The notes beneath the pieces were generated by a model, which saw only the letters and a program-made list of their open reading frames with translations, ran no database searches and was not told the DNA's origin. 64,000 bases of DNA from Tubulanus polymorphus (taxonomy: Eukaryota > Animalia > Nemertea): assembly GCF_964204645.1 (NCBI RefSeq), contig NC_134036.1:8346812-8410811 (forward strand), in the 5' to 3' direction. This document shows, in pieces, positions 6,701-27,385 of this stretch (position 1 is the stretch's first letter; every line of letters starts with the position of its first letter). The translations under genes were made by a program, and so were the position numbers.

Positions 6701-6755
6701 CACTATACTGACTATCGATATGAAGTCTGTACGTGCAAAAACTAAACGTCGGTAA
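747..6755 (+). CDS. GRL101: GRL101-like (type C LGR) GPCR with CUB, C-type lectin, ~7 LDLa, LRR and 7TM domains; exons 747-2000, 2083-3417, 3492-6755 (~1950 aa)
   Basis: Introns 2001-2082 (GTGAGT..TATAG) and 3418-3491 (GTAAGT..TCAG) are both phase 0 and join the three ORFs in frame. Splice 2 rebuilds a C-lectin motif (IGLKLQ|PKTGHYTWNDGKPLSYAEW). CUB: GYIVSPNYP..CRWFI. LDLa: e.g. CDGVTNCKDGSDETGC. LRR: LxxLDLTYNNL. Hinge FCC...DQFSSCTDLM; TM6 CWLP; TM7 NSTLNPLLY. Start codon uncertain (747 or a nearby downstream ATG). The symbol denotes the family, not proven orthology. Confidence 0.9.
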
Positions 6756-8523
6756 TATCCCAAAGAAAAACAATAATTTGTATCTAGGGCTGTATAGGGT
6801 CTCGCGTTCAAACCTACTGCAGTTGAGCTTATCTGCGTTCCATTAGTGACGGAGTGACAGTGAGAGGCTACAAGAATTGTTCAATGAAAATACCAACAAT
6901 GTTTATTTAGTACAACGCTCGGTTTCTAGAATTGAAACAAAAATGTCTAAGCCATACGATGGCAACCTAGTATAATATTGAAAAGTCTGAATCAAATAAA
7001 TCAATTGAACTTTATTGCGAATGGTCGACAACTCGCTCAGGCCGCCGCTGATACTGACTAAAGCGTCGCTGCTTCCAAATTACCGCCGTCAATAAATGAC
7101 TTTGATATGATATGCGTTTTTTTACGACGACCGCAGCATCAGTTGGGATTGAAGCTGCTGCCACGAGTCCGGAGACGATCGCCGATGTCCTTCAGGATAA
7201 ATAAGTCTTTCTCAAGGCCCCGTTGGCTTTTATAATTTCAAAACTCTATTCGGAACGATAGGACCGACGTTTTTACGTATGCTCTCCGGACTCCTTATAT
7301 AAAAAACGATTCACCAAGTGGAACAGTAGCTGGTCTGGGTCTCCTTGGAGCACTTCTCTAACTTAACAGACTCGCCAATGAATTGTGAATTAAAAAACGA
7401 TTTTTGCACCACAACATGAATTGCATTACGTACATCACCGAGATACATTGGCGTATAATGATTTGCATTTGTTGTTGTTCAATGTCACTTGTGAACACAA
7501 TACATTTTATCCGTTGCCATTTTGTTTTTGACCCATATCATCTCACAATTTTTTTTTCGTTAATAAAGCATAGTAAAATACAATTGTCACCAATGGCAAA
7601 TATCTTATGAAAAGGGTCTTACCAACGCACTCGCAGATTTGAATTTTCGATGAAATTTATTCAATATTGGACTCATCGAAATTATGAAATAAAGCCTCAT
7701 CTTTACTAACACTCATATAGTAATGGGGATTAATGTGAGTACCTAACTCATTCTGAAATCTCATACGTCGAAAATTCTATAATATGAAAAGTCAAAGTTT
7801 GTATGAGTGGTGATGAATAAATAATGCTAAAAATAATCGCAATGAAATGTATTATTTTAAAGGTGAGAATTATCTTTCATGAACGTATAGCGATACTCTC
7901 GTCATAATATCATGTTTGAATTCTTAGTCATTCGTCAATAGTCTTCTAGGAAGAAGAGTTAGTTCAAAATCCAATTTGTTCTGTGGTTGATGTTTCATTC
8001 CATTTGCGAAGGCGGCGGTTGACTCAAAGAATGATTTAAATGTAATGGGCCCTCTGCAGAAGCGAATAAAAGTAAAGGGTGTAATTTTAAACGTGGAATA
8101 CTTCAATTGAAGTTGTAAGTCGAATTAAAGAATTAAACACTAGACATGAAAATTGATATTACTCCTCGTGGATGGGACAGCACATCTTATTTATCAACAC
8201 CGAAAATCTTCCCCCACGAATCAGTAAACAATCCAGTCATGATTTATTTATTCGCAGTTTTATTGAACAGGTCTTTTGCGATATGATTTTCATCAAGGCT
8301 CACAGAAATAATCTTTTATATTATCCTTATCATAGAATAAGAAAGGTCCTTTCCAAATAATTTCAGATTCTACTTCAACAGAATTACTATTACTTTCGTT
8401 ACTATCAACATTAACCGTTGTTTCATTAATTTTACACTTCTCTGAATGTTTTTTAACATAATTTCTAGAGAATAATTTATTACAATTTGGGCAGTTTATT
8501 TTAGGGGGTTTATAATTATTATC

Positions 8524-9020
8524 ATGTTTTTCAAATTACTAGAAGAGCTCCGTTGAAAATCGGGGGCACTTCTGTATTTTAAAATTAAATTTAATAAAAT
8601 TGATAGTACTAATAAAATAAGAATAAAGATATCTAATGAACAACATAAATTTATGGTAAACAAACCAATGACTAAAATGTTAGGAATTAAACCGCTTACA
8701 GTTACTGGAAACGCAGAAGGCATCTCAAATATAATACCTTTTACACACTTTTATATTTATTGCAATTTCGATCCTACAAAAACTTTCGAAGCAACTAAAG
8801 AAACAATTTGTAGTTCTAGTATATTAAATATTTTACCGCTAAAAAATGTTAAACAATTTGGAACTCAAATAAATTATAATTTAACAGAATGTGATTTCAA
8901 ACCATGCATTCCTCATTTTAATAATTTTTTAGATTAGAAATTAGATATCATAATGGATATTTAATTGATTTAAATAATTTTCCTGTAATTTATGAATTAA
9001 TTATAAGATGTAAAGAGTAA
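8524..9020 (+). pseudogene. Polinton penton / minor capsid-like protein (degraded)
   Basis: Motifs FYIYCNFD..SSILNILP..GTQINY..FKP, then after a stop/frameshift IRYHNGYLIDLNNFPVIYELII, resembling the C-terminus of Polinton single-jelly-roll pentons. Confidence 0.55.
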
Positions 9021-9036
9021 TTTTTTCACTATATAA

Positions 9037-9390
9037 ATGAATATAACAGTAGGACCGAGTATATGTTTTGGATTTGATTTTAAACATGAGAAAGAAATGA
9101 AATTTAACATTACTGATGTAATTACACATATTAAAAATATTGCATTTTCTAATGAAACAACATTTGAGTATGAAAAAACAATAGATAAAGAAACTTTAAA
9201 AGTAGAAAAGATTACTAATTTAATAAGAGAATCTTTAAGATTTTATGAATTAGATGAAGATTTTATTATTGATGATATTAAAAGAATAATAACTGAAATA
9301 TATGAAAATGAAACTAATAATACTATTAATGTTGAAATAATTATAACTAAGATAAATAAATATTTTGAAGATGGTAATTTTTTTGATTAA
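9037..9390 (+). CDS. Polinton hypothetical acidic protein (117 aa)
   Basis: Intact ORF starting at TTTTTTCACTATATAAATG inside the viral gene block. Confidence 0.55.
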   Translation: MNITVGPSICFGFDFKHEKEMKFNITDVITHIKNIAFSNETTFEYEKTIDKETLKVEKITNLIRESLRFYELDEDFIIDDIKRIITEIYENETNNTINVEIIITKINKYFEDGNFFD

Positions 9391-9393
9391 TAA

Positions 9394-9639
9394 ATGAGTG
9401 ATAATAAGTGGATAATAACTGGATTATATAATGGAGCATTATAATCAGTGGGAACTGTTGGTTATTCAATGGTATTAAAAAAAGTATTTAAAATGGGAAG
9501 TGTTTATGTTGATAGATTTGATGTAAATGATATTTTAGAATTAACATTAGCAGTTACTTTATCTAATTTAACTATTGATCATTTGGAAAAACAGAAATAT
9601 ATTCCTCCTTTATCAATGCGTAATTATTTTACTAAATAA
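9394..9639 (+). pseudogene. Polinton small hydrophobic protein (in-frame stop near the 5' end)
   Basis: TAAATG start at 9394; continues VGTVGYSMVLKKVFKM..FDVNDILELTLAVTLSNL..LEKQKYIP. Confidence 0.5.
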
Positions 9640-10061
9640 ATGGCTTCTGCAATTATAACTATTATAGGATCGGCAATTGTTAACGCTTTAGCATTTACTG
9701 GTGGTGGTTATTTATTCCAGCATATTGATAAAAATAGTTCATTAGCAGAACAAAGAAGATATAACTTATCGTCAGAAAATAAAATAAAGCAGCAGAAGAA
9801 TATAGAGAAAAAAGACAAAACTATATGGATTACATCAATAAAGAATTATATGATCAGAAGATTTCACATAGAGATTTTCAATCAGTTGATGATGCAATGA
9901 GTTTATATAACGGGGTAACCAATAAAGAAAAATTACATCTACACAAACCTAAATTATCAGATTATTATACCCCAAGTATAGAACAACAGAAATATGAAAT
10001 AATATGGATTTTAGGCGGAACTGTTATTGTTATATTTGTAGCATATAAATTTACTAATTAG
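9640..10061 (+). pseudogene. Polinton small membrane protein (frameshifted)
   Basis: MASAIITIIGSAIVNALAFTGGGYLF; a frameshift joins the 9825-10061 ORF (KPKLSDYYTPS..YEIIWILGGTVIVIFVAYKF). Hydrophobic at both ends. Confidence 0.65.
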
Positions 10062-10259
10062 TAATTTTTTTTTGCTTAATAAATGGATGATAAAGTTGAT
10101 AATAATGATATTATTCCTCATGATATAAACAAAACTAAATTAAAATTATATTTGGAAAAACAAATAATAGAATTTGAAAATGATTTAAAAGTTAAAAAGA
10201 AAAAATATTTTAAAATCATATATTATTTTATTATTAGTGATTCAGTTACAATTAGTTCT

Positions 10260-13200
10260 CACGTACGTACAGACAATGCTAAGAATAAGAGACCTTGAAG
10301 TTTCGCGTAATTGTTGTGACCTTTAAGGAAATCAATATTATTCGGTGGCCGCGAACAAATCTATTGCGCGCGATCACGATCTTCAGCAAGACGTGGAGTC
10401 ATCCTCGCTAGACACGATAGTTAAAATATCGGAGTGTATCATGAATTGGTTGCCTTTGAAACGATTCCAGTTGCTTTAATGGGTGTCATTTGTTAATGTA
10501 AGTAAAGAATTACGTTTGTGGCCGTTAATGGTGTATGTTTGCTGCATGTTGACCCAATAAATGTAAAAATACGACTGAATTTGTTTACTTACTTCAGACC
10601 GCGGCCTATATTGAAGTAATTCCGTTAAGATGTCAACCCATAATGAAAAAAAGATTCGTATCAACAGTTAACCGCATTCACCTTCAGGCCTAGCTCATCG
10701 ATGGGCCTATTTCATGTATTGAAGTGCAAACTGTCAGATAATTTGACCCGTCCCAGGCTAGTAAATTCCCTCAGTTATTTGTTTTTTCGGGGCAGTCGAA
10801 GCAGGGATGGGTTGTGACCACAATGAATTGTAGTAAGAGTTGTAATATTGTCAGGTAGGCCTAGAGAGTGGGCGATAATCTGATAATCTGTGGCAATCGA
10901 CGCCGTGCGATTATAGTCAATCTAGGCCTAAAGCCTCCAGTACATTTCGTAAGCCCTATCATATTATATATTACAGGTTTTTTTAAGACAGCAAATGTTT
11001 TTCAAAGGGGACAGACAAAGCTATTCAAGTAAGTTTAATCGATCGCCATTCCCATAACAATACAAGCATGAAAGCCCTGCTCGCAAGTAGAACAATATCT
11101 GTAAATAATTTTTATGACTTTTTAGTGTATTATTTATTGAAAAATCTTGTTATTTCAGATTTACCGCCTCGTATCGGAGACGATATTTTTGAAAAAAATC
11201 CGCACTGGCATTTACGGACAATTGGACTACGCTTATTCGAATTAGTTGCATAAAGTGCCGAACTAGTGTCGTACGTTGGATATCGTGATTTGAACAATTC
11301 ACGAACATCTCTAGAGCAATACTAAGAATAAGCTTCGCACACTCATCGTGACCTTTTAGGAAATCGATATTTTTTGGTATCGAAGAAGGGGTTGCGGTTA
11401 AAAGTGTTTCATTGCTTTCATCTGCCAACTGCATGTCACTTTTCGCTGATTTTCTCCTAGAGCCTGTTAGATTGATTGAAAGAACATTCAACTCATTAGA
11501 TAAAAACTTAAGGTACAACCCAGTAATTATTGTAAATAAAATTTATATGGTGCAGCTTGCACGAGCGTACTTTAAAAACTGTTAATGCAACTAACATTTT
11601 GTAATATTACAATTTAAAACATAAAGGTATCAGCATTTTTTGCTTTTAATTAATTATATATAAGGTAATACATGTATTTAGTTTGACGCAATTTGTCTAT
11701 TGTGAAACAATGATTTCAATAAATTCTATGTCTACCACTTGCTGAAAATGGAATAGTTTTAAATTTGTTGGTATGTTGCATGCAGAGGAAATTAAATGAT
11801 TAATTAGGCAAAAGAAAAATTAACCAGTCTGTCATCAGATAGAAATTGTTAGTGATAATTCGATATTTCACCATGTCAAATGCTACCACTTTTGGAACAC
11901 TATTTTGACTAACAATTGTCCTGTAACAAACTTCAATTTCACTCAAGGACAGACTCAAGTTAGTTTGAAAATGAACTTTGAAATAGTCAAGAAACTCACC
12001 TTTATAATACAGCTGTCAGAACCACACGTCTTTTACAAAAACTTTATCCTGAGACTCATTTCCTTTCACTTATTGTAAATAATTCATACACAGGGTACCA
12101 TTAATATACGATATGTTAGAGGAATATTTCGATCCAGATACATTCTTTATGAATAAAATTACCATCCTGCTATAAATTTGATCCAAGAACCCCAAGTAAC
12201 CTTTCTTGAATTAGATGGCTAAGAAAGACAAACACAGTCATATATAATTTTTGAAAGGTTTTTATTGAAACAACAATATGAATTGAAAATGATGGATGTA
12301 TAAAAGAAAAAAACAGTCAACATATGTAAAATTAGAGAATTGATCAACTTGAATTTTTATCAACTAGTCACAAACATTCAATGGAACATTGTCAAAATAA
12401 ACTTCACAGCAATTAACAAAATTGATCGGTAAATTGACTGTCTGCTATAACGAGCAGTATTCCTTTTATTGCGAATTATATTTTTCACAATCTATTATAC
12501 ACCGGAGTTTGTTAGAACAACAGTTCCATTGAATTTACAATCTTTCAAATACAATTGACTTGATTTTTTGGCATTATTTCACAAGGTTACCACCAATTAC
12601 GGAATTAAGAAATCATTGCCAATCTTTGCCATTTCATTTTTAATTATCAGAGCAACTTTCCAAAATCATAATCAGGGTAGAGTCATAATGTAATGAACAA
12701 TAGAAAAAAATATCAACATCTAATACAAAATGCTGCAGAATCACTTACTATGAAGCTTAGCCATTTTTTCTTTAAATGATATTTTTTTCCTCGCTGTACC
12801 ATAGTAGATCTTTCTTGCAGAACCCAACATGCTGGTAACCTTCCCAGCTACCCTGCTACCCCAGGGCTCGCGGTCTACTGCTTTCTGACCTACAAAAATC
12901 AATTACACAATATATCAATGTATGTTCTAACTATAGGCCTAAAAATTTCTTTAAATCCATTGACTTACCTCTGTGTTCAACAATTACTGAATACCTTCAA
13001 TGATTACGACTAGGTTTGACGATTACAACTTCGTTCAACGATTACAACTTCGTTGAACGATTACGACTCGTTTAACGACTACGACTCTGTTCATCGATTA
13101 CGACTCCGTTCAGCAACTACGCTTCCGTTAAACGATTACGACTCCATTCAGCGACTACGACTCTGTTCAACGATTACGCTTCCATTCAGCGACTACGACT

Positions 13201-14528
13201 CCATTTAACGATTGCGACTCCGTTAAACGATTACGACTCCATTCAGCGACTACGACTCCGTTCAACGATTACGCTTCCATTCAGCGACTACGACTCCATT
13301 TAACGATTGCGACTCCGTTAAACGATTACGACTCCATTCAGCGACTACGACTCCGTTCAACGATTACGCTTCCATTCAGCGACTACGACTCCGTTCAACG
13401 ATTACTGAATCCCTTCATCGATTACGACTCTGCTCAATCCTTTATGACGAACCCGACTATGTTGAAAAACAAATCTATTCCGACTATGACAAATACATCT
13501 ACAATTACAAAAAAAGTACCAATAGTTATTACCATTTGGAGGCCCGAGAGACCTCAAATGCAAAGGACCTAGGCCTATACATTAATCAAACTACATGTAT
13601 TTGATTCGGTAATTTTACAAGGTCGAAAAGCCGTAAAAGGCTTATACTATATGAAATAGACAGACTTGATAAGCGCCAAGGAACGAGAAACTATAGTAGA
13701 CGATAGAGGCCTATCACTCGCCCACCTAGACTGCAACAATTTCTAGTTTAGGCCTATATAAGTGTCATTTTTGCTGTCTATGAGAATGGGTTGTTTTGAA
13801 GTTGAAGACATATCACTATTAACACATAAAAGCTCCTGCGTTAAACATAACTCTGTCGAATAAAATTTAATTTTGCTTGATTTTGAATACCATCTTAATT
13901 TTCACTTCTTTTTTAACAAGGACACAATTTCGCTTGAATAGAATGAAATCTAATTGATCTCAATCAACTGTTTAAAAAACTTAACAGTAGAAATAAGCAG
14001 TTTAGTGACTATGTGCAATGTAAAAAGACGAAACGTAATACGATTATTATGGGCGCCAAAAAAATTTTTAATAATTGTGCAAATTTACAGACGAGTGTCA
14101 CTTTTTTGACATTATACAATGACAGAGACCCATAAAAGTACATAGTTATAGAAACTACATACTAATATCTAGTTCGTCACATTTTGTTTTTTTAAGTTAG
14201 GCCTGTTGTATGGATAGAAATCGCACATTTGTAGCGGAAAATGTCGAAAATTTTATTTCCGGGTTACGAAATTCAGGATTGACAAAAAACGAGAATGTTA
14301 ATAGAAATTCCGAAAATTCTACGAACTAGTGGCGGATGTTTACTAAAAATCTAATCATATTAGGTTCGAATCCCACATTTACTGACGATGTATTCGGAGC
14401 ACTCCCGAGTCACTCCAAGTCTATATCTCACAGCATTAGCACAAAATGGCGCGAAGCTCAGTGCGCGATATCGATTAATACGATCAATAATTAAAGTTGG
14501 CGAGATTCGTATTGTCTGTACGTACGTG
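10260..14528. mobile_element. 4.27-kb DNA transposon with 18-bp TIRs and 4-bp TSD (CAC-ended, Chapaev/CMC-like)
   Basis: Perfect TIR CACGTACGTACAGACAAT (10260-10277) / ATTGTCTGTACGTACGTG (14511-14528); TTCT duplicated at 10256-10259 and 14529-14532. Superfamily inferred from termini and TSD only; no transposase recognised. Confidence 0.85.
13001..13435. repeat. 19-bp minisatellite with a 95-bp (5x19) higher-order repeat
   Basis: Unit ~CGATTACGACTCCGTTCAA; the variant CGATTACGCTTCCATTCAG recurs at 13171, 13266 and 13361. Confidence 0.9.
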
Positions 14529-14799
14529 TTCTGTTATAACATTTCTAGCAATATTCTCACCATTAACACCTTTAGCTATCTCAATTGGTGTGTTAGGATT
14601 AAGTTCAAGTGTTTTAAGCGGAAAAACGTCAAAATTTAATATAAAAAGAAATAAAGAAAAAATAAAATTTAATTTAAAAGAAATTAATGAATTAAAAAAT
14701 ACACTAGATTATATTATAAGTTTAAATGGTAATATAACAATTGAAGAGCTGGATAAATTATTAAAAGAATTAATAAATTATTATTTTTGTATTATAAAA

Positions 14800-16180
14800 A
14801 TGGCAATTAGTTTTCCAAAAGCTTTTAAACATAATAAATCAATTAAATATAATATTCCAGCAATAGATTTTGATAAAGATATTTCATATAGGAATGAAGT
14901 TTTAAATTCATTAATTAATTTAGATATTTATGTTACTGAAACTAATAATTTTAATGCAAAGATGGAAAATATATTTCATGTATATTTAATTAATTTTAAA
15001 AAATTGAAAGTTGAAAAACAATGGTTATTAAAATCTAATATGAAGTATTTGCAGAACCAATTAAATTTTGCAGTTTATTGTGCAACAACAGGATTTGGAA
15101 TAAGTTGGAATAATCATTTGAATAATTCTAAATATGAATTAATTCAAAGTTTATTTATATTCCATACTTATTTTTAAATAAGATTAATATTAAATGAATT
15201 AGAGACTCCTTTGCCAGGATCTAGATATTTTAAAGAATTAGATAATAATATTAATTTATCAAAGTTTTATAAAATTTGTAATGAATTTAATATAGATATA
15301 AATCATTCTGATTGTAGGACAAAAATTGGAACAATAAGATCACTTCCTTGCCCTAAAAACTTTGCAGCATATTGTACGCTTCCCATACCATCTAATAGTT
15401 TTTATAATATCTATAATAATATATGAGGTAATGGTAAAATAGAAACAAAGGATGTAGAAACATTAAATTTCAATAAATTACCGAAATGCTATGATAATTT
15501 AAAACAAGAAAACTATAATGGTTGGGTTAATTTCATTTTAGAAAATAGTGAAGGATTTACAAAATCAGGTATACAAAGAATAAATCAATCTATTAGAATA
15601 TATTTAATTTGTATATTAGGTGCACGCGTTGAAACAAGATCACCAATAGTTGGAAATAATAATACATCATTTGATACACAAAAACAATTTAAAGTATTAT
15701 TTGAAGATTCAATTCATAATGATAAAAATAGATCGATTCCAGAAAATATTATAAGATATCAAAATTATTTAGATAAATCACATGTAAGATTAAATTATTG
15801 TATAGGCCCTAATCTTTTAATCATTTCCGATGATTTAATATTAAAGATGGGGAATATAATTGGTTATGATAATTTAATTAAGACTGCAACAATAAATAAT
15901 GCATTTGGGTTAAATGACATAAATAAAAAGATTATTACTGCTCCAAAACTAATGGAAGGTGAAAAATTAAAAAACATATTCAATCAACTGAAACTAAAAC
16001 TAAGAATATCAAATTAAATAATGATACTAAAATAAAAGATTAAAATACATCAGAAAATATAAAAACTGATATTATTCAACATGATATAATTAAAACTAAT
16101 AATGATAATAAATCCCATGAAAATACTAAATTAGCTATAACTAAAGAATATTATATTTTAAATTTTAATTTTTTATTAAA
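14800..16180 (+). pseudogene. Conserved Polinton-like hypothetical protein (several stops)
   Basis: QNQLNFAVYCATTGFGIS..HL..FIFHTYF*IRLILNELETPLPG; later GFTKSGIQRINQSIRIYLICILGA; starts at TAAAAATG. Confidence 0.65.
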
Positions 16181-16183
16181 TAA

Positions 16184-17780
16184 ATGGAAGAAGATATTCC
16201 AACGGATGCTTCTGGTGACACCCCCGGTATAAGTGATGAACAACAACCTGAATTTAATGAAACTAATATTGATAATGATGATGGAGCAGCGTATAATTCT
16301 AATTTAGGTGATGGTGATGATGCATATTCTACCTAATTACATGAACAATTAGAAAGATACAAAGCGGCTGAAGCAAGTGGTAGAATTTCAACTAGATCAG
16401 AAAGAAAAGATTTAATGAATCAATTACGATTACAACAGGAAGAATTTCCTGATTTACAAAAAGAATTATATTTAATGAAAACTAAACTAACAGATACAGT
16501 TGTAAACAAATTATTACCAAGAGATGTAATAGATAAAGTTGATTCAGAAGATATTGTCATACAAATTTTAAAAGATGACCAATTTTTCACGAATAATTCA
16601 GAATTTAAAAATGATGCGTGGTATTATAATCTTGAATTAAATAGGAAAACTAATTCAAATTTAGAATTTAGCAGAATTATATGGAATGCACTCGATAGAA
16701 TAAATGAAGAAGAACCAATTCCGAATATTGATATTAACAAATATTCGCCATTTAAAAATCCTAATTTTAGTCCTACTTATGTTGATCCAGAAATGGAAGA
16801 GTATGGAGATCGATTAGTTAAATTAAGAACTTCAACACTAGAAACATCGAGAAGAGATATTCATCAAAGTGAGAATGATTCAAGTCAATTACAATTAGGA
16901 AAACATTTAGATAACTTTCTGGGTACAATGAATTCATTTGAAGAAGATATGATTAGTATTTAAGATACACCTGGTACTGAAACTGGAACAAATCGAATGC
17001 AACTTTTATTAGATAAAGAATTACTTGATTTAAATGAAGAACAATTAAAATTGTTTCCTGAACAAGCACGTAAAGAAATTAAAGGCATGCAAGATTCAGC
17101 TGGTGAAATTGCTAATATTAAGATGAGATTTTCTCAAATAACCATGTTTGAAAAAGAATTAACTGATGCAAATGAAGAGTTATAACAATTAGAATTAAAT
17201 AAAGATCTTCAAGTAATTGATGAAGTAGAATATGAAAGCAGAAAGTTAGCTTTAGAAAAAGAAATTGATGATTTAAAATGTTACAACGAATTGCAGGAAA
17301 AAGAAAGAGATATATTATTGAAATCATATGATCTTAACCATATTAAAAAATTGAAAATTTTTTTTTAAAGATTTAATAATAAAACCAGATACTAAAATAT
17401 CAATGAAAGATAGAATAAGATTATTATTTAAGTTAGAAGGTATAACAAATCTTTTAATTCTAACAGCTGTAACTATGGTATTTACAAAAATAGGTTTAGC
17501 TATTTCGAATTCATTAAAATCCACACCAACTCCCAATAAACCGGATAAACCACCGAGTAATAATTCTATACAAGATAAAGTGAAAGATGGATTTAAAAAA
17601 TTAGCAAACTATCTAAAAAATCTGCTGCAGCTTTACCCGGAATTATAGCATCGATTGTTGGTTTTATATTGAAATCTACTGGAAGTATTCTTAACTTTGC
17701 TGCTGAACATATTATTTGATTTTTAATTACAGTTGTAAGTGCAATTATTTTTGGATTAGTGAATATGATAAAAAATAGAT
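16184..17780 (+). pseudogene. Polinton acidic/coiled-coil protein with C-terminal amphipathic and TM helices
   Basis: Broken ORFs 16415, 16997, 17403; C-terminus KDRIRLLFKLEGIT..KVKDGFKKLANYLKKSAAALPGIIASIVGFILKSTG.. Confidence 0.6.
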
Positions 17781-17802
17781 AATTAATTTTTTTGTTAAAT
17801 AA

Positions 17803-19023
17803 ATGAGTGGGAGTTATATAAATTCTTCTAAGAATTCTAAAATATCTAATGCTGTTAAAGCAGAAAGATCTCATCATATAATTAGCCATAATCCTTCTAA
17901 TATTAATCCCGATGAAACTTTATATGTTAGAATCCCTCGATTGACACAAAATACTTTTTATGTTCCAAATAGTATTAATTTATCAGCTGATATAAAAGTA
18001 ACTGGTCATGATAACAATTATGGTGTTGATAATGTTGGAAGATATTTGATTAAAAAATTAACTATAAAGATCGGACCAGAAACAGTTTTTTCATTAGATG
18101 ATTATAATTTATTTATGCATTACAAAGATTTATGGTTAACAGAAGAAAATAGAAATAATATGATATTTCAAGGCATCCAATCAGAAAACCAAAATAAATT
18201 AACATCAGGAGCTAATGATGCAAAAATAACTCGTACCGCAGATAATTTGATTAAAAAGATTTATGGAAGCAAATATAAAATTCCATTAGACTTTGAATTG
18301 ATAAATAATAATGCGCCTTTATATAAATATCCAATTCAAGAAGATATTATATTTGAAATAACATTTGCTCCTGTCAATGAAATTGTATTATCTAGCGTTG
18401 TTAAAGATTTGGGTTATAAATTATCGATTGTATGTTTAGAATATGACACAGTAACTGATGAAAATATTGCTAGCACAATTCAAACTCAATATGATCAGGG
18501 ATTTTCATTATTATATGATTATATGATTGTATTGATAAATTCAAAACTGTAACTATTTATGCAAGTGATGAAATAATAATGAGAATATTTACTTCCCAAG
18601 AAGATCTGTTAAAGGAATATTGATATTTTTTACAATTGCTTCATATTCTAACGGTGAAATACAGGTTGATAAGTATTATAATCCTGAAATAACAAAAGTA
18701 GAAAAAACAATTGAAGGTATAGCAAGTAAAATATTTTGCCAAGGAATGAGAATGATTGATGAATGGCCAGAAATTAAAAAGCATTTTATGAATGAAAAAA
18801 ATAAATCTTAAAATTGTAATATTAATCAAATTGATTATTATACCGGTAACAAATATGCACTTTGGTTAGATTTTAGAACAACATAGGATAATTCATTACA
18901 TGGTTGTGGGAAAAATTACAGAACATTAAAGATGGAATACAATTATTCATGACAAAGAAAAAAGGAAGCTTAAATTTCAAAATGCACATTGTAAATTCTC
19001 AATTGAATAGTGTCATGTATTAA
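17803..19023 (+). pseudogene. Polinton major capsid protein (double jelly roll), frameshifted
   Basis: ~400 codons: HNPSNINPDETLYVRIPRL..VPNS..LSAD; VDNVGRYLIKKLTIKIG; YKIPLDFE; LSIVCLEYDTV; YNPEITKVEKTIEG; KYALWLDFRTT. Size and position fit an MCP. Confidence 0.7.
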
Positions 19024-19058
19024 AATTTTAGTTTTAATAAAAAAATTCTATAATAAAT

Positions 19059-20090
19059 CGAAGGAGGAATATATGATATACAAAGTCCAAGTCAAATGAT
19101 ACCAGATATATATTCAAATATAGAATAAGTAAAATAGAAGATAACATTGAAAGTAAAATAGAAGATAATATTGAACGTAAAATAGAAGATAATATTGAAA
19201 CAAAAACAGAAGATAATGTCATACCTTCTACATCGAATAATGGTAAGATTGAACCTGATAACAAAACCAAAAAGACAAATGAAAAATTTTGTGACGTATG
19301 TAAGAAATATATAGCATATGAAAATTGGGCATCACATAAGAAATCAAAGAAACATGCAGAAAAAGAAAAGAATAATAATATCATAGATAATGTTAATACA
19401 ATTGAAACTAATGATACCATAGATAATATAACAGATAATGTTGATACAATCGAAACTAATGATAATGAAACAATTGATGATTCTAAAAAACATCGTAATT
19501 TTTGTAATTTAGATATTTCTAAAAGTAATTTTTCTAAACTATAAAAATCTCAGGCGCATATAGAAAATGAAAGGGAGTTAGAAGAACATGAAAAGAAATT
19601 AGAAGAAATAGAAAGAAATAAATCGTGTCAATATTGTAATAAGAAAATTGAACCTGTTGATAAAAATACTCATTATAAATCAAAAATACATCTGGTTAAT
19701 GTTTTTAAAAATGTGAGTATGATACCATTGTTAAATAACCCAATGAAATATATCAAATATTTTGATCCTAAAACTAAACAATAGTATATATTCTATAAGT
19801 TGTTATTTGATAAATCATTAGCTTATGCAGAAAATAATCCTAAACAAATATATAAATTATTGTATTCGAGAAAAATAGATTTAAGTTATCTAACAAACAA
19901 TTTTGGATATCATTTTGATTTTAATGATTATGATGAATACCTTGAAAAATTAAGAGAAGAAGGTAAGATACATACTAATTATCATAATCTGATGGTTCAA
20001 CTAAAACTAATTAATATATCTACAGATATCAGTGTATTAGATATAAACAAAGATGACTTTATAAATTTATTAGAAGCAAAATTAGAATAA
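19059..20090 (+). pseudogene. Polinton protein with repeated C2H2/U1-like zinc fingers
   Basis: CDVCKKYIAYENWASHKKSKKH; CQYCNKKIEPVDKNTHYKSKIH; the start appears mutated (TAAATCG). Confidence 0.55.
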
Positions 20091-20115
20091 TTATTGTGAA
20101 ACTATTTGTGATATT

Positions 20116-20181
20116 TATGTACTAGACGTACGAGTAAGAATCCAAGAATTCTTACTTTCTTCCTCGTACGTCTAGTACATA
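20116..20181. terminator. Polinton intergenic hairpin 1
   Basis: 19-bp perfect stem TATGTACTAGACGTACGAG / CTCGTACGTCTAGTACATA just after the last + strand stop (20090); terminator role inferred. Confidence 0.55.
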
Positions 20182-20300
20182 CATATATAAATTAGCTTTT
20201 ATAAAAATTGAAATATAAATTATTAATTGAAGTATCGAAATAGTTATATTATAATCTATTTTTGTTTTTATTAGGAGATAACATATAATTTATTCATTTT

Positions 20301-23300
20301 AGGCCAGCCGTAGGCTAAGCCTATTACTATACAAATGGAGCGAATTTAAATGACATGGTGTCCACACAAAAGGCTCTTTTGCTTGCCAAGTGGAGGCATA
20401 TTCGAACAAATCACGTATTTAAGCGTAATCCATTCTCGGAATCGTAGCGAGCAGAATTTTGAAATAGGGTTTCATAAAAACGTTTTCTGCATTATTCACA
20501 AAAGTTAAATCGGGAAAATTTCAATTTTTATCAGCCAATCAGGAAGTTGTGTCTTCCCTGTGATTGGTTTATCTGAAAATATCAGCAGCTGTTCACGTGA
20601 ATTATCGCGATTTCATTACTGGCGCTTTTGCGCATGGCGTCATGTATCAACTCGCGACAATACTTCCGCGTTCGTGTTCGCTGTTCCGTGTTCGCTGAAA
20701 TCAGGCTTATGTACTGGGAAATTCCACAGAAGCCTAATGTGGTGTGTTACAAGCGCTGTGATTGGCCCAACCCGATTCTGGCACGGCTTTAGCTCAGTGG
20801 GTTCGAATCCCTTGACGGGTGAAGATGATTGGATCCTATCAATATCTATTGAAACAAATAAGTTTCCCGGTTGGGCAGACGCCGATATCTACCGGTAGTG
20901 TTCCGGTTCGATATTTCGAGGTTTCTTTGAATTTTGGAGTGATATTGAAATCCGGTAAATACCGGCGGTAGATTGTGAAAACCCATGATATTCGTATTAC
21001 TTAATCAATGAAAAGCGTCGGGGCCGCGCCAGGAGTTTTCGCGATTCAAGTAGCGCAATAGCCTACTTCTTCGTGTTTGTCCACCTCAATTTTCACTCCA
21101 CCGATTTCTGACAAGGCTCTGTCGCCGTCGGCACTGTGATTGCACTTTCGTACCACCAAAATTTTTTTAGTTCTATATCAGGGAGGTTTGGAGAATAAAA
21201 AAGTCAAAATACGGATATCACATAGGCCTGATTTCATCGAATAAGTCGACCACCTTTCCGTACTAATTACCACCTAAAACCGTCTGAACAATTTTGTCAC
21301 AAATAACATTTTGTTTACAGATATCAGGTGTTCACGTGAACCCGCGGTATCGTCTGCTGTTTTACTTCCGGGTTTTATTTTAGTTTAAAATTGTATTTCT
21401 AGATCGATTTCTATGAAATCTTTAGTTGATTTGGTGTTTGGGAGGAATTTTTATTTGCTCTACAGAAAATTCAGAAAAAATAGGTTCTACCAAATCGGGT
21501 GTATGACTTTGATATGCTAATTAGCCATGTGTTCGAATTGCAAATTCAATCAAATCTTATTCTGCCAAAAAATGTTAAATCCAATTCGCTTTCCGAGAGC
21601 TAATGGTATGCTGCATGGAACAAAGTTGTTTTGAGATGGGTCTTGAAGCTATTGAGGTGAGAGATTACCATCTAGATAGTTCGTGAGAGTTCCAAAGTTT
21701 TGAAGACGCTTCAAGGTAATGTCTTGATATTTGGTTTATACGTGTATCTACCCTAGACACATCTTCAGGCCAAAAACTGGCCCTGTCAGATTCAAGATGG
21801 CCGACTGGCCATTGTTGTTCGCCAAAATCAGCACTTTTTACACATTTTTGAAGTTTTCGAGGGAAATTTTGAAGACACTTTTATCAATAACCTTGATCAT
21901 TCGTATATATTTGTATCCCCCAAGGGTTCATCGGAACGAGAAAATTGGGTCGACCGGACTCAAGATGGCCGTCCTGTGACCTTTTTTTGTTCCCAAAAAT
22001 GTCAATTTTGGCCTGAATTCTGAGTCCTGTAGCTTCCTAATGGTGTGCCATTTTTCTTTGCAATTTGTAATGGGTATTCTTTGGAAAGGGATCTTTCATA
22101 TCCGAGAGGGTATTTTTGACCAGGCATGTGGAGACCACGAATCGATAATGTATTATACCTATAGAATACCTATAGACCTACGTATTATTATCCAAGTCCT
22201 TACAGCACTTCGATGACCGCATTGTACTTGTCACGTGATTTCAGTAACAACGGAAGCTTTTTCCCTTGCCTCGTTCATTTTACGTGCAAGTCGCGGTAGG
22301 AGCTGTTTGGTAAATTTTGTAATCCCGGAATCATAACGTGTCGTAAGTTTTACCTTTAATTTATTATTATTCTGTGGTCTTCACATTCCGTTAATACGCA
22401 TTTCCAGTAAGATTCACAGCTAATTTCAGTTGTTGAATATCATTAGTCATTGAATATTTTCGTCATTTTTGCCGGGTTAAGTAATATACTTTTGCCGGCT
22501 AATTCCGTCGTATTTGTATGCGTTCTGGATTAAATGCGTTTCCAGCGGTGTGTACAAATCGTTCGTTCATACTAAACATTTTCAATTGAATGTCCATATT
22601 CTGGCCAGTGATATGTAACTCGGCCGTTATTTATTCATATTTATCAGCTAGCCTACCACTGATATCGGTTTCGGAGAATTTCCATTTCCGGTTAAGTTTT
22701 TTCGTAGGCCATTTCGGAGCATTTTAGCTCCAACTTATTACTGTATTTGGTATTTACAGAAACCGTGAAGTGAATTATTGTGAATATTGTCGTCTGGTCG
22801 TCTCCAGTCGTGGAGAACTGAATCGAACTCCGCAATAAAAGTGTATTGAAACTGAAATAAATATATATATGTACCAAGAAAGAACTTGTCACTCGCGTCA
22901 TCGGGATATCAGCCGTTACAAGGCAATTATGACGCAATTGGCGGTCATCTTGGGGTCATCAGTACTCATTCGTAGGTGGAAAAAACGTTTTTCCACATCA
23001 TATTGATACTTAAGCATATTTTGCTACCATAATCAATTGGAAAGTTGTAGCTCATGACATGGTCTATGATCTTGGTGAGTTTCAAGCTCATTGGTTTTTG
23101 TATATGGCCACCAGGGGCGTTGAACAATACAATAACGTAGAGTCTCTATATTACATTCGTACCTATGCATATTTTGCTACCACAATCAATTGCAAAGTTG
23201 TAGCTCATGACATGGTCTATGATCTTGGGGAGTTTCAAGCTCATTGTTTTTTGTATATGGCCACCAGTGGCGTTGAACAATACAATAACTTAGTATTTTT

Positions 23301-23449
23301 ATATTACATTCGTTCCTGCTGTCTGTGTTAACACACGATTTTACTATGTAAATGATATTGAGCAGGGAGTGTATATTGATAAATATAACCCATCATTTAT
23401 AAAAAGTAAATCTGACAGGCTGGCCATTGTGCCCCTTGGGGCTCTTGTT
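20301..23449 (+). mobile_element. Helentron/HINE-like non-autonomous composite element inserted in the Polinton
   Basis: Subterminal IR GGCCAGCC (20302) / GGCTGGCC (23418), 3' hairpin GCCCC-TT-GGGGC then TCTTGTT, T-rich flanks, internal 153-bp tandem pair; 5' end recurs at ~47357. Confidence 0.55.
23014..23313. repeat. Two tandem copies of a 153-bp unit
   Basis: GCATATTTTGCTACCA..TATATTACATTCGT at 23014 and 23167. Confidence 0.9.
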
Positions 23450-23506
23450 ATATATTTCATTTAATAATTTAAATTTGTAATTATTATAAACTGTTTCTAT
23501 ATCGTC

Positions 23507-23550
23507 TACTAGACGTACGTAAGAATCTTGGTAAGAACGTACGTCTAGTA
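23507..23550. terminator. Polinton intergenic hairpin 2
   Basis: TACTAGACGTACGT / ACGTACGTCTAGTA, same family as hairpin 1. Confidence 0.5.
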
Positions 23551-23593
23551 CATAGATATATAAATAGTTTCAGAATAATTATTCTAAATTTAC

Positions 23594-23708
<115 letters not shown>

Positions 23709-23823
23709 ACCCCTGTGTAAACATAAATTATAAGCATAGTTTTAATATATAATTTATTCATTATAATATATTTCATTTAATAATTCATATTTATCATTTT
23801 TATAAAATAAGGTTTAAGGATCT

Positions 23824-23906
23824 ATGTACGAGAGATACGAGAAAGAAACCAAGATTCTTACTTTCTTGGCAAGAATCTTGGTTTCTTACTCGTACGACTA
23901 GTACAT
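23824..23906. terminator. Polinton intergenic hairpin 3
   Basis: AAGAAACCAAGATTCTT / AAGAATCTTGGTTTCTT core extended by TACGAG/CTCGTA and ATGTAC/GTACAT; downstream of the - strand ATPase. Confidence 0.5.
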
Positions 23907-24029
23907 ACATATATAAATAATATATTTTAAAAAGGGGGGTTTTAGGTATTAAGGTATCTAATACGTACCTAATACGTATCAAATACATAAATGCTTAAAA
24001 TACCTTGTTTTATAAATTCGTATTCATAA

Positions 24030-24597
24030 GGAAATTGTAGTCTCAGAAGTAATTTTGAACGTTTATTACTTTTTAATTTATTCATATATTCATCATGTAA
24101 GTCAGTAGGTATAATTTGATTTTCTTCCAATGATTGTTGCATCGATTATTATTTTTATTGTAGAATAAAACTAGAAATCTAATGTTTTCTCTAAAGTCTT
24201 TAACAATTGAATTATATTTTTGATTTAAAACCCATGTTGTTATCCCAAAATGTCTCCCAGAGAAAGCTAAATAACATAACTCACTTTCTCTAATTTTTGA
24301 ATGATGTAAATTAGCACAATCATCTATGATAAATAATGTATTTGAACCTTTATAAATATCAATTGCTATTTGAATACAATTATCTAAATTTTCTTTTACT
24401 GCTTTAGGATGTAATATAATAAACTTTTTTATCTTAACTATATCTCTATTATATGTTTTATTCAGTTCATAAGTGTGGCAGAATGATATTATATCATGAA
24501 AATGATTTTTATAAATAGTTTCTAACAAATCTAATATGAAATGTGTTTTACCGCACTTGGTTACTCCAGTAACTAAAATATTATGTGGTTCAAACAT
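24030..24597 (-). pseudogene. A32/FtsK-like DNA packaging ATPase (Polinton)
   Basis: Walker A GVTKCGKT, Walker B LFIIDD, GRHFGITTWVLNQ, FREN; C-terminal frameshift. Confidence 0.88.
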
Positions 24598-24610
24598 AAA
24601 TAAATCTTTA

Positions 24611-25685
24611 TTAATTTATTCTTTTAATTTTGCTAGATGAAATCCATTCATTAAATTTATCATCATAACCTTTATATTTCACCAGAGAATACTTTTATCC
24701 TTAAAGAGTTTTTGTTTTTAATACTTTTTCTATTTGGTATTCTATTTCATCTGGATTTGGTATAAGTGATAATTCTTGTTCATAAAATATAACCTAATAT
24801 TTCTTTTAAATCTTTTAATTTATAAACAAAAGGTTTAGTTAATATTATCTTTTTGATTTTAAATATTTCTTCAGTTAAATTAGGAGTATAACCTTTATAA
24901 AATGTATTTTCTATATTTAGATATTCTAACATGTAGGCCTATCTTAAATTTAGGTTCTCCAAAATCATGTGTAACAAACGCCCCATATAAATTATTTAAA
25001 CTATTTCTGAATTTTTTTCCTTTCTAGCATTTATTGGTTTCATATTTACAGAACTATGTTTAGAATTATTATAACCTTTCACTAAATCATCTAATACATC
25101 GATATATTTATATGTTTCATTAGCAGTAAAATATTTCCACATACTAGTTTTCAATGTTTTATTAAACCTTTCTATAATAGATGATTTTTTATCTGAGTGT
25201 GTTGAAAAATATTCTACATCGTTATCAGATAATAATTTTTAAAATGTTTATTATAAAATTCCATACATTCATCAAATTGTATCTTACCTGGAATAGCTTC
25301 TTTAAATATATTTTAAAAGCATTTGTTACTTCTATACCAGTTTTATTTTTGATTGGAATACTCCATGCGTATCTACTGAATATATCTATAACATTTAATA
25401 TCCAGAAATATCCTTTGTTGTATTACTCTAATTTCTTCGTGTCTATTAAATCTGCTTGCCATTGTTGATCAATATATGAAACCATAACTTTTCTTGTTAA
25501 ATAATTTTTATCCATTTTTTAATGGATTTGATATGTTGGTTGATTTTGTAACCATAATCTTAGTTCACTATATTTTGTATTTTCTTTATCAGATTTAATT
25601 TTATCCCATAATTCAGTAACGCTAGAATATGATACTTCACTCTCTGGGTTATAATATAAATCTCTTAAATATTGTTGTTTTTCAT
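24611..25685 (-). pseudogene. Polinton retroviral-like integrase with C-terminal chromo-like domain
   Basis: Reverse strand: LRDLYYNP..; IDQQWQADLID; VIDIFSRYAWSIPIKNK; IERFNKTLK; YNNSKHSSVNMKP; LVKYKGYDDKFNEWI; stops and frameshifts. Confidence 0.9.
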
Positions 25686-25689
25686 CTTA

Positions 25690-26053
25690 TTTTAATCCAT
25701 TGATAATAATCTTGATTTAGTTTCGTTGATTTTGTCATTTGATTTATTTTCTGGTATAATAGGCTTATCATCGGGATCATTATTATTAGATTTATACTTA
25801 TATTCATATATTACACCAGAGAATATAATAACTGTTACTAATCCAATTGTAATATATAATTTATTATTACTTCCAGCATTAGAAGAATCAGATGGATTAT
25901 CATTCGAATCAATATCAGATAATTTCTGTGATTCATTTATATCAGTTAATTTCTTTTTTTAGCTTTTTTTAACTCAGAAGATCTTTTACCCAATTCCCTT
26001 GCCCATTTAATTTGTTTTTCGGATCCGGGTTTCTCCTTAATATCATCACTCAT
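25690..26053 (-). pseudogene. Polinton small basic protein with TM segment
   Basis: TAAATG start; MSDDIKEKPGSEKQIKWARELGKRS..; later LYITIGLVTVIIFSGVIY after a frameshift. Confidence 0.5.
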
Positions 26054-26600
26054 TTATTTTAGTTAATTTTTGTTCTGATTCAATATCTTCTGATATATTT
26101 TTATCTTTGTATTCTATAGGTTTGATGTTAGAAAATGTTATAACTCCAGTAGAAATTAATGTCATTATTCCTCCTAATTGAAATGAAGTGTATCCAACCC
26201 ATTTCTGTAGTTCTGTCATTACTAAGTAGTCATTTTTTAAATCACTATATAATCTATTTTCATCATCAATTGGTATTACTCGGTTACATAATTCAGAGTA
26301 ACATTTTACTATTCCATCACTTATAGAGTCGTTTATTCTAGCTAATCTAGCTTCTTCATACATTTTGAAATGTTTTATTACGTTATCTGGTTTCATGTTA
26401 TCTAATTCTTGAAAAGTTATAATTCTATTTAAGAACTCCTTAGATTTTCCACCAGCAATCAGTTCTAGATGGTGCTAACATGTTAAATAGTATTCATAAT
26501 CAATATCATAATTTTGAATACAATTAGAAGCAACTGTATCATTATTGCCAGTAATGCCCAAATCCTCAATTGTCTTTTCAATATAAGATTTCTTTGACAT
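26046..26600 (-). pseudogene. Polinton hypothetical protein with C-terminal hydrophobic segment
   Basis: Start TTTTTTGCTAAAATAAATG at 26600; LIAGGKSKEFL..; ORF 26046-26396 ending GGIMTLISTGVITF. Confidence 0.55.
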
Positions 26601-27385
26601 TTATTTTAGCAAAAAAGCGTAGAAATATTATACTTATTCTTCAAATGATACTACTAGTTAAAGTTAAAGAATTTTCTATACTAGCTTAGTTAATTAAGTT
26701 AAAGAATTTCTATTCGAATCTTATCAAAATATTAAGTATTCCCTTTTTGAAAAGAAATAATAGATTTTGAATAAAAATATAATAGAATTCACTATATAGT
26801 TGAAGTTATTGTTTTTTTAATACTTTTTTTTTAAATTAGGATTTAGATTTAGATCTCACTACTATTGTCTATCTATAGGAGCGGTAACTATAACTGTCCA
26901 GATAAGGTCACTCAATAATTTGAAATTTTTTTGTAATTAGCTTCGTCTTATTCTATATAAATACCAGTATGATATGTAATTTTAATCACTTGCACCATGC
27001 CTGAAGAGGGGATAATTTAACTCCCGAAAACGTTCGCTTTAATAAATATATATTACGCATTAGAAAATGATTTGTACCTTTTTTTGCATCTTTGAATTAC
27101 CTAGACTCTCTACCTAAGATCTAATGATGAAGAAAAACGTTTTGCAATACTGGCGCGGTATGTGGTCGAATGGTCGCCATTAAGACCGCCTACCCATAGA
27201 TTTCGCACAGATAATTCCGTCTAAAAATTAATTATAAAGACACTATTTTTTTTTTTGTACAGAGAATTCATTAATAATACTGCAAGTTGTATTAATGATT
27301 GAAATAAAGAAGTTTATATCCTGATTTTAAATACACAATTTTAAGTTTATTCCTATTTCTTCATTTTCTTTTCATTTGGACTTAC

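What the first reader, a model, noticed from the sequence alone, without database searches (positions are those of the whole stretch)
9021..26616. Polinton genes start at poxvirus-style late promoters (T-tract, spacer, TAAATG)
Seen: TTTTTTCACTATATAAATG (9037), TTTTTTTGATTAATAAATG (9394), TTTTACTAAATAAATG (9640), TTTTTTTTTGCTTAATAAATG (10083), TTTTTGTATTATAAAAATG (14800), TTTTTTATTAAATAAATG (16184), TTTTTTTGTTAAATAAATG (17803) and minus-strand TTTTTTGCTAAAATAAATG (26600); TAAATG also at 26053. Integrase and ATPase starts lack it. Known: poxvirus late promoters are a T-rich tract, short spacer and TAAAT overlapping the ATG, and virophages share late promoters with their helper giant virus. No RNA polymerase gene was seen in this partial element. 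Inference: a virophage-like Polinton transcribed by a pox-like cytoplasmic helper virus of a marine invertebrate, or using an equivalent initiator.
Basis: partly seen in the sequence, partly recalled or inferred. Interest (0 to 1): 0.85.

Follow-up and report, generated by a model that had tools for sequence, protein, structure and literature searches.

The report
Polinton clade with poxvirus-style promoters
A broken virus-like transposon in an animal genome belongs to a lineage in which nearly every gene starts with the same short signal that poxviruses use to begin their late messages, which suggests these elements likely depend on a still unidentified large virus to switch them on.

Summary
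Confirmed and extended. The window holds a decayed, twice-interrupted Polinton (double-jelly-roll capsid, A32 ATPase, rve integrase) in an animal genome with many sibling copies. In 12 related loci of one supported capsid clade (98/97), 51 of 59 gene starts read TAAATG, against 74 of 1605 other ATGs; TAA is the upstream gene's stop in 1 of 51. A fixed upstream element accompanies it: T at -12 (48/51; 23/74 at non-start TAAATG) and A at -18 (41/51). The signal persists at 40-44% GC and is absent from relatives outside the clade (1/16, 0/71), including one at 26% GC. Back-to-back genes lie 19-30 nt apart. This fits the vaccinia post-replicative promoter as reviewed (TAAAT on the ATG, T about ten bases upstream). 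No RNA polymerase was found in partial clade loci or two complete sister elements. Best reading (0.6): promoters for the polymerase of a helper giant/pox-type virus, as in mavirus-CroV. No helper, transcript or start site was observed; that the helper is a poxvirus is about 0.35. The scan's notes hold similar start-fused initiators in giant viruses, none in Polintons.

The parts
8430..26900 (.). Decayed, partial Polinton copy (AT-rich parts about 76% AT); ends approximate, no terminal inverted repeats or pPolB gene inside this span
   Evidence: composition, homology to L001/L004/L005, many sibling copies in run X1 with depth falling near 27,000
8557..9014 (+). Remnant of the gene orthologous to L005 565-1329 (254 aa; minor-capsid role is my guess from size and position, untested); 5' end not recognisable
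   Evidence: 48-71% identity in pieces
9019..9039 (+). Start signal: A(-18), T(-12), TAAATG; heads a 117-aa ORF 9037-9390 orthologous to L005 1333-1713
9376..9396 (+). Start signal of the small hydrophobic gene (orthologue of L005 1733-1960, 82%), broken by a stop
9622..9642 (+). Start signal of the 139-aa-family gene 9640-10058, frameshifted
10065..10085 (+). Start signal of the 144-aa-family gene, split by an insertion (pieces 10083-10250 and 14515-14781)
10260..14528 (.). Foreign insertion with perfect 18-bp terminal inverted repeats and the same 4 bases on both flanks (DNA-transposon-like); not part of the Polinton
   Evidence: sequence printed
14782..14802 (+). Start signal with T(-12) but AAAAATG; heads the 442-aa-family gene 14800-16142 (broken). 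Sibling copies laid from run X1 carry the canonical motif here
16166..16186 (+). Start signal of the 485-aa-family gene 16184-17776 (broken; hydrophobic C-terminus)
17785..17805 (+). Start signal of the major capsid gene 17803-19020 (frameshifted; 72-74% to intact 415-aa relatives, which fold as a double jelly roll)
19036..19058 (+). A-rich upstream tract and TAAAT with the start codon lost; heads the broken zinc-finger-bearing gene to about 20087 (weak match to L001 2461-3687)
20116..20181 (.). Strong hairpin at the point where the plus and minus gene blocks converge; related copies at 23505-23552 and 23836-23894
   Evidence: (z -10.3, -4.9, -9.4)
20300..23447 (.). Second insertion, absent from other copies
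   Evidence: joint 20299-23448 in 2 contigs of run X1
24008..24633 (-). A32-type packaging ATPase gene (broken) with its start signal: T(-12) and TAAAT kept, start codon lost at 24615
   Evidence: Pox_A32 E 3e-8
24614..25685 (-). rve integrase gene (broken in several places); its start lacks the motif in this copy
26051..26071 (-). Start signal (A-rich type, T(-12), TAAATG) of the 130-aa-family gene 26053-25716
26598..26618 (-). Start signal of the 206-218-aa-family gene 26600-26049

Best explanation
The window holds a decayed copy of a Polinton lineage whose genes nearly all begin with a fixed two-part signal (A/T core at -18 to -12, then TAAAT fused to the ATG), and this signal is likely a promoter read by the RNA polymerase of a co-infecting large DNA virus, probably of the pox type, rather than by the animal's own polymerase II. 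Shown: the signal, its fixed spacing, its restriction to one capsid clade, its presence on core and accessory genes, and the absence of a recognisable RNA polymerase gene in the relatives examined. Inferred: messages would start inside TAAAT, be nearly leaderless and perhaps gain a slipped 5' poly(A) leader; the integrated element would stay silent until a helper infection supplies post-replicative transcription factors, as with mavirus and CroV; it would then replicate with its own pPolB, package itself and re-integrate. The helper is unidentified: any large cytoplasmic virus 0.6, a poxvirus or close relative about 0.35.
For: Enrichment: 51/59 starts vs 74/1605 other ATGs and 74/1229 non-gene first-ATG-after-stop sites; 21 of 22 ORF clusters have it, the exception being an antisense shadow ORF. 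Fixed upstream letters: T(-12) 48/51 vs 23/74, A(-18) 41/51 vs 15/74; G+C only 12/357 at -18..-12 but 49/204 at -11..-8 (core then spacer). Where TAAATG fails, TAAAT or TAAAAT mostly remains, shifted by 1-3 nt (L003, L004, L006, L012), as expected of a transcription initiator and not of an in-frame stop. Not composition: 6/8 starts in L006-L007 (40-44% GC), 21/22 T(-12) in the seven higher-GC loci, but 1/8 in L015 (26% GC). One clade, support 98/97. Back-to-back genes 19-30 nt apart ATG to ATG, each with TAAATG (L001, L009-L012). Vaccinia late promoters: TAAAT then G on the start codon, conserved T about ten bases upstream; intermediate ones AT-rich 15-19 nt upstream (PMC11980589; PMC5294985). 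Precedents: mavirus promoters match CroV late motif, silent until infection; PgVV uses its helper's early motif; PLVs found with entomopoxviruses. No RNA polymerase family among 32 + 31 proteins scanned, including two TIR-bounded sister elements of 13-14.5 kb. Deoxynucleoside kinase in two clade loci suits replication outside the nuclear S phase (inference).
Against: No transcript, start site or helper virus was seen. The register of the T is uncertain by one base: it is the 9th base before the T of TAAAT or the 10th before its first A, and the primary vaccinia papers were not held. Short AT-rich initiators fused to ATG can converge; 20 of 51 starts also read TATAAATG, which holds the ASFV late initiator TATA. 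T-rich and A-rich types are not kept between orthologues. The pox early terminator TTTTTNT is depleted in sense coding DNA (12 vs 34) but so are T and A runs in general, also in the outgroup, so it adds nothing. Strong hairpins at the convergent junction in the window, L001/L002 and L004 are not a poxvirus trait that I know of. All clade loci are partial (at most 11.5 kb), none shows the pPolB start, and the starts are not independent (orthologues in related elements). The high number of copies in the host must be squared with helper dependence.
Confidence: 0.6

Rival explanations
1. The signal is a core promoter for a host RNA polymerase II that makes nearly leaderless messages, either in this animal or in an earlier (for example protist) host with very short 5' leaders; its likeness to poxvirus promoters is convergence.
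For: The element reached many copies in an animal genome (11,398 and 2,839 contigs laid), easiest with host transcription. AATAAA lies within 60 nt of 16 of 47 gene ends. Protists with AT-rich initiators next to the ATG exist (recalled: Giardia, Trichomonas; no call).
Against: AATAAA is not depleted inside sense coding DNA (139 vs 141.6 +/- 6.6), though this test did not separate the outgroup either (12 vs 15.7). A core 12-18 nt before the ATG is too close for a TATA-type Pol II complex (about 24 bp upstream of the start, as discussed in PMC7163114). The three host ORF starts in the window lack the signal (a very small sample). Relatives with the same gene set lack it.
Confidence: 0.2
2. The signal acts in translation: an A-rich start context plus an in-frame TAA that insulates the start or couples it to the previous gene on long messages.
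For: A at -1, -2 and -4 and G at +4 (37/51) resemble a strong invertebrate start context (context recalled). In the window the TAA at 9640 can close the upstream frame.
Against: TAA is the stop of the upstream gene in 1 of 51. A Kozak context favours a purine at -3 (recalled), here T in 86%. It does not explain T(-12)/A(-18) at fixed distance, the shifted TAAAT starts, or the signal on both members of divergent pairs, which cannot share a message.
Confidence: 0.1
3. The clade carries its own pox-like RNA polymerase, as the yeast linear virus-like elements do, and needs no helper.
For: Yeast VLEs have protein-primed replication and a TAAAN initiator with slipped 5' poly(A) leaders and stem-loop terminators (PMC6211774); hairpins occur at a convergent junction here. 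No clade member was seen whole.
Against: No polymerase family among the clade proteins scanned. The longest contigs on record for the L005-type capsid cluster and kinase are 16,883 nt; after L005's 11.5 kb and a 3.2-3.6 kb pPolB little room is left, if that contig is near complete (not shown). Complete sister elements have the same core genes and no polymerase.
Confidence: 0.06
4. Chance product of AT-rich, tightly packed genes.
For: The bare hexamer is no more frequent than in shuffles of the element (21 vs 21.8).
Against: 86% vs 4.6-6% background, fixed upstream letters, persistence at 40-44% GC, absence at 26% GC.
Confidence: 0.01

Closest known systems
Vaccinia virus late and intermediate promoters (PMC11980589, PMC5294985; passages)
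   Same: TAAAT overlapping the ATG, followed by G or A; T-rich core with a conserved T about ten bases upstream after a spacer; A/T-rich stretch 15-19 nt upstream.
   Different: Here on a 13-17 kb integrating element, on nearly all genes; no stable late versus intermediate classes; function untested; register of the T matched only to within one base.
Mavirus / CroV provirophage system (10.1101/068312; passages)
   Same: Integrating rve-integrase, pPolB, double-jelly-roll element whose genes share one promoter motif with a large-virus late class.
   Different: Motif is TAAAT-type, not CroV's TCTA (11 of 51 upstream regions hold TCTA, no fixed place tested); host is an animal; capsid is Polinton-like, not shown to be a virophage capsid; helper unknown.
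Entomopoxvirus-associated PLVs AHEV_PLV1/2, CBEV_PLV1, Ca_PLV1 (PMC11296320; sections 5, 6, 10, word search, supplement search)
   Same: Polinton-like elements tied to poxviruses, one integrated in an animal genome.
   Different: They have a protease and no rve integrase; the paper's main text has no occurrence of promoter, motif or TAAAT. Their sequences could not be fetched, so relatedness and their gene starts are untested.
Animal Mavericks/Polintons (PMC8097293, 10.1101/2023.08.22.554363; passages)
   Same: Integrase, ATPase, capsid, pPolB in relatives, TIRs in sister elements, mostly decayed copies; a virophage-like role was proposed as a possibility.
   Different: No maturation protease matched in the complete sister elements; no helper-type promoter reported in the passages seen.
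Yeast linear virus-like elements pGKL1/2 (PMC6211774; passages)
   Same: Protein-primed elements with a TAAAN initiator like that of poxviruses.
   Different: They encode their own RNA polymerase, have no capsid or integrase, and use an early-type upstream element.

Membership tests
Polinton/Maverick | Double-jelly-roll major capsid protein | tested here: met
   Model of alignment A1, pLDDT 89.7; Foldseek hits are NCLDV, virophage and adintovirus capsids, E to 1e-19
Polinton/Maverick | A32-type packaging ATPase | tested here: met
   Pox_A32 above cut-off in window and relatives
Polinton/Maverick | rve integrase | tested here: met
   Weak in the broken window pieces, above cut-off with chromodomain in L001, L005
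Polinton/Maverick | Protein-primed DNA polymerase B | tested here: inconclusive
   Not inside the window's copy; C-terminal part in clade locus L006 (48% to L015 pPolB); whole in L015, L016, L020; an unlinked fragment at 49127-50165
Polinton/Maverick | Terminal inverted repeats and target-site duplication | tested here: inconclusive
   None seen for the window copy (only the 25 longest of 329 pairs shown); 133- and 99-nt TIRs in sister elements L016, L020
Polinton/Maverick | Adenovirus-like maturation protease and minor capsid protein | tested here: inconclusive
   No Pfam protease match among 63 proteins of relatives; a diverged one is not excluded; minor capsid only guessed
Poxvirus post-replicative promoter | TAAAT initiator overlapping the start codon, followed by G/A | tested here: met
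   51/59 starts
Poxvirus post-replicative promoter | T-rich core with a conserved T ten bases upstream, after a 5-7 nt spacer | tested here: inconclusive
   T(-12) in 48/51 is nine bases before the T of TAAAT, ten before its first A; counting rule of the source not checkable
Poxvirus post-replicative promoter | [quoted passage not shown] | not testable with these tools
   No raw RNA reads were offered
Poxvirus post-replicative promoter | Activity depends on poxvirus RNA polymerase and late factors | not testable with these tools
   Needs a reporter experiment
Provirophage (helper-dependent integrated element) | Shares its promoter with an identified helper virus and is silent without it | not testable with these tools
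   No host genome held, no helper found
Provirophage (helper-dependent integrated element) | Encodes no RNA polymerase | tested here: inconclusive
   None in partial clade loci and two complete sister elements; no complete clade member seen
Mimivirus/ASFV/CroV promoter types | AAAATTGA, TATATA or TCTA as the upstream motif | tested here: not met
   2, 5 and 11 of 51 upstream regions; but 20 of 51 starts read TATAAATG, which holds the ASFV late TATA

The most novel reading that the evidence does not exclude
A lineage of Polintons endogenous in animals are provirophages of an undiscovered poxvirus or pox relative of invertebrates: every gene is wired to the helper's post-replicative promoter, the switch to helper dependence happened once within a Polinton family whose sister lineages kept other start signals, and the promoter motif can be used to read off which animal Polintons are helper-dependent and on what.
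Probability: 0.35. Interest if true: 0.9.

Novelty: new variant of a known kind. Interest (0 to 1): 0.72.

Why it matters
How animal Polintons/Mavericks are expressed, and whether any act as virophage-type defences against large DNA viruses, is an open question raised as a possibility in PMC8097293. A lineage-wide, sharply defined promoter makes it testable with a simple reporter and 5'-end mapping, predicts a pox-like or other large virus in hosts where none is identified, and gives a sequence marker to sort Polintons into helper-wired and other types. The contrast with sister elements that share the gene set but not the signal offers a natural comparison for how helper dependence arises.

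Tried and rejected
No whole genome is held, so no motif analysis on intact host copies and no search for helper genes in the host. No RNA holder listed; run X2 laid 2 and 0 records: no evidence either way. Viral contigs gave no relative with capsid, ATPase or kinase queries; a DNA pattern scan gave 5 chance hits, none Polintons, 0 TAAATG starts. Phage collection: no match. PDB sequence search with the capsid profile: none. AHEV_PLV2 could not be fetched and the supplement of PMC11296320 as searched held only two unrelated TAAATG strings (cells over 400 characters are cut, so it may hold more). TTTTTNT avoidance: rejected as unspecific. AATAAA avoidance: uninformative. Late versus intermediate gene classes: not stable across orthologues. 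A general hairpin rule at gene ends: not seen; only the main convergent junction of one subclade. Origin of the kinase: nearest named homologues are unnamed or 24-40% identical, no viral assignment. The 442-aa protein as a possible transcription factor or enzyme: confident model, no fold match (best E 0.54, best Z 3.6), which excludes nothing. The ATPase tree is the quick version only. Literature searches listed no paper describing pox-type promoters on Polintons; most subscription papers are outside the library.
Full report
What is in the window. Between about 8,430 and 26,900 lie three AT-rich blocks that encode pieces of a Polinton: an A32 ATPase (Pox_A32, E 3e-8), an rve integrase and a capsid gene. 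Intact capsid relatives of 414-420 aa are 72-74% identical at best and fold as a double jelly roll. The copy is decayed and cut by two insertions: 10260-14528, with 18-bp terminal inverted repeats, and 20300-23447, which other copies lack. The left block has the gene order of locus L005, the right block that of L001 and L004. The flank encodes a GRL101-like receptor typical of animals. Run X1 laid 11,398 and 2,839 contigs, mostly 90-99% alike, on the two parts tested (part of the first count comes from the insertion), so the host has many diverged copies. No host genome was held.

The observation. The bare hexamer is not enriched in the element (21 vs 21.8 in shuffles), but the T-tract version is (7 vs 1.5, 0 of 200), and TAA precedes 8 of 10 homology-defined ATG starts against 13 of 387 other ATGs. 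The ATPase start keeps TAAAT although its start codon is lost, and so does the gene after the capsid.

Relatives. A capsid alignment fetched 35 loci. I used 26: 12 close, 6 intermediate, 8 distant, grouped by capsid identity before any tree; dropped were L002, L013, L014, L022 (near-duplicates or damaged) and L030, L032-L035 (fragments or decayed). Starts were defined without regard to the motif (first ATG after a stop, ORFs of 70 aa or more, longest kept). TAAATG heads 51 of 59 close starts, 1 of 16 intermediate and 0 of 71 distant ones (the last noisy, as GC-rich DNA gives spurious ORFs); background is 74 of 1605 other ATGs or 74 of 1229 non-gene first ATGs after a stop. TAA is the stop of the adjacent gene once in 51. 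Of the eight exceptions three are not true starts (an antisense shadow, two internal pieces), four keep TAAAT or TAAAAT shifted by 1-3 nt, and one has TAAAT about 20 nt upstream. Twenty-one of 22 ORF clusters carry it, including accessory genes such as a deoxynucleoside kinase and an HNH-like protein. The motif-bearing loci and the window form one clade in the capsid tree (14 rows, 98/97); L029, its sister on a long branch, has 0 of 2. Composition does not explain it: L006 and L007 at 40-44% GC have 6 of 8, L015 at 26% GC 1 of 8.

Anatomy. Counting from the A of ATG, T stands at -12 in 48 of 51 starts (23 of 74 non-start TAAATG) and A at -18 in 41 of 51 (15 of 74); -18..-12 is almost free of G and C (12 of 357) while -11..-8 is not (49 of 204). 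All nine window starts quoted have the T at -12. Five divergent pairs have only 19-30 nt between their ATGs, each with its own TAAATG; the core is nearly palindromic, so one stretch can serve both directions (inference; bidirectional vaccinia promoters are recalled, not from a call).

Comparison. PMC11980589 (passages) describes vaccinia late promoters as TAAAT, typically followed by G on the start codon, with a conserved T at the tenth base upstream among weaker Ts, and intermediate ones as TAAA with an AT-rich stretch 15-19 nt upstream; PMC5294985 (passages) gives a T-containing core, a 5-7 bp spacer and TAAAT(G/A). The T here is ninth from the T of TAAAT or tenth from its first A; the primary papers were not held. 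Mimivirus AAAATTGA, TATATA and an early-pox-like pattern are rare upstream (2, 5 and 1 of 51), but 20 of 51 starts read TATAAATG, which contains the ASFV late initiator. Mavirus genes share the CroV late motif and are silent until infection (10.1101/068312, passages); PgVV shares its helper's early motif (10.1101/2022.07.28.501842, passages); a pacmanvirus transpoviron and Halocafeteria virophages were read the same way (passages). PLVs in entomopoxvirus occlusion bodies are known, but that paper has no word on promoters (PMC11296320). Yeast linear elements use TAAAN with their own polymerase (PMC6211774, passages). A virophage-like role for animal Mavericks was floated in PMC8097293 (passages). 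PMC10328495, 10.1101/2023.08.22.554363 (passages) and 10.64898/2026.10.13.758929 (word search only) added nothing on this. Searches listed no description of pox-type promoters on Polintons.

Who reads it. Pfam scans of 32 and 31 proteins from relatives found pPolB, integrase, ATPase, kinase and no RNA polymerase; L016 and L020 are complete between terminal repeats but lie outside the motif clade, whose loci are all partial. Results against or neutral: TTTTTNT is depleted in sense coding DNA, but so are homopolymer runs generally; AATAAA is not depleted, a test that did not separate the outgroup; T-rich and A-rich upstream types swap among orthologues; strong hairpins sit at the convergent junction in the window, L001/L002 and L004 but not at other junctions, which recalls mimivirus or yeast-element terminators more than poxviruses (hairpin rule: search listing only, otherwise recalled). 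Notes of this scan report uncultured giant viruses with AAAATG-type start signals (unchecked), so an ATG-fused initiator does not single out poxviruses.

Verdict. The signal is real, selected and lineage-wide. A promoter for a helper's RNA polymerase explains its fixed two-part layout, its independence of reading frame and the cramped divergent pairs better than host transcription (0.2), translation (0.1) or an own polymerase (0.06). Confidence 0.6; pox-type helper 0.35. Helper-matched promoters are known in protist virophages and PLVs, so this is a new variant of a known kind: a pox-type signal on an animal-integrated Polinton clade. Interest 0.72.

Noticed in passing
window 747-6755 (+): Three long, intron-free, in-line ORFs (CUB; C-type lectin; LDLa-LRR-7TM, GRL101-like) that look like one very large receptor gene in pieces or a retrocopy.
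   Followed up: partly
window 49127-50165 (+): AT-rich, broken fragment of a protein-primed DNA polymerase with the endonuclease-VII-like insert, related to those of L015 and L020; link to the main copy unknown.
   Followed up: partly
window 14800-16142; L005 2996-4324: Conserved 442-aa protein with a C-terminal membrane helix; 1,372 representatives at E<=0.001, confident model (pLDDT 88), no fold match in BFVD or PDB representatives.
   Followed up: partly
window 20116-20181, 23505-23552, 23836-23894; L001 3787-3822; L004 3183-3255: Strong hairpins of different sequence at the same convergent junction; possible terminators or replication signals, unexplained.
   Followed up: partly
L005 10340-10981; L007 2895-3377: Deoxynucleoside kinase genes in two clade members, only 25% identical to each other, perhaps gained twice; none matched in the distant elements scanned.
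   Followed up: partly
L015, L026, L027, L031 gene starts: This AT-rich side branch has its own A-rich starts (TAAAAATG, TAGAAAATG, TATAAAATG), possibly a shifted initiator for another helper.
   Followed up: no
L019 9967-13596: A relative with the same capsid module carries a superfamily-1-like helicase gene where L016 and L020 have pPolB: a replication-module swap.
   Followed up: no
L016, L020: TIR-bounded elements with no protease match; L016 also shows no integrase among its long ORFs and has a T7-tail-fibre-like gene.
   Followed up: no
L009 360-409: The divergent promoter region is itself an inverted repeat, both genes beginning MATG.
   Followed up: no
L005 7141-8469: The integrase is split into two ORFs, the first with the TAAATG start.
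   Followed up: no
window 10260-14528: DNA-transposon-like insertion with 18-bp TIRs and a 4-base flank repeat; holds a 19-bp tandem array at 13014-13460.
   Followed up: no
L035; protein P0046: Polinton capsid pieces filed under an archaeal MAG and a Bartonella record, probably contamination from eukaryotic DNA.
   Followed up: no
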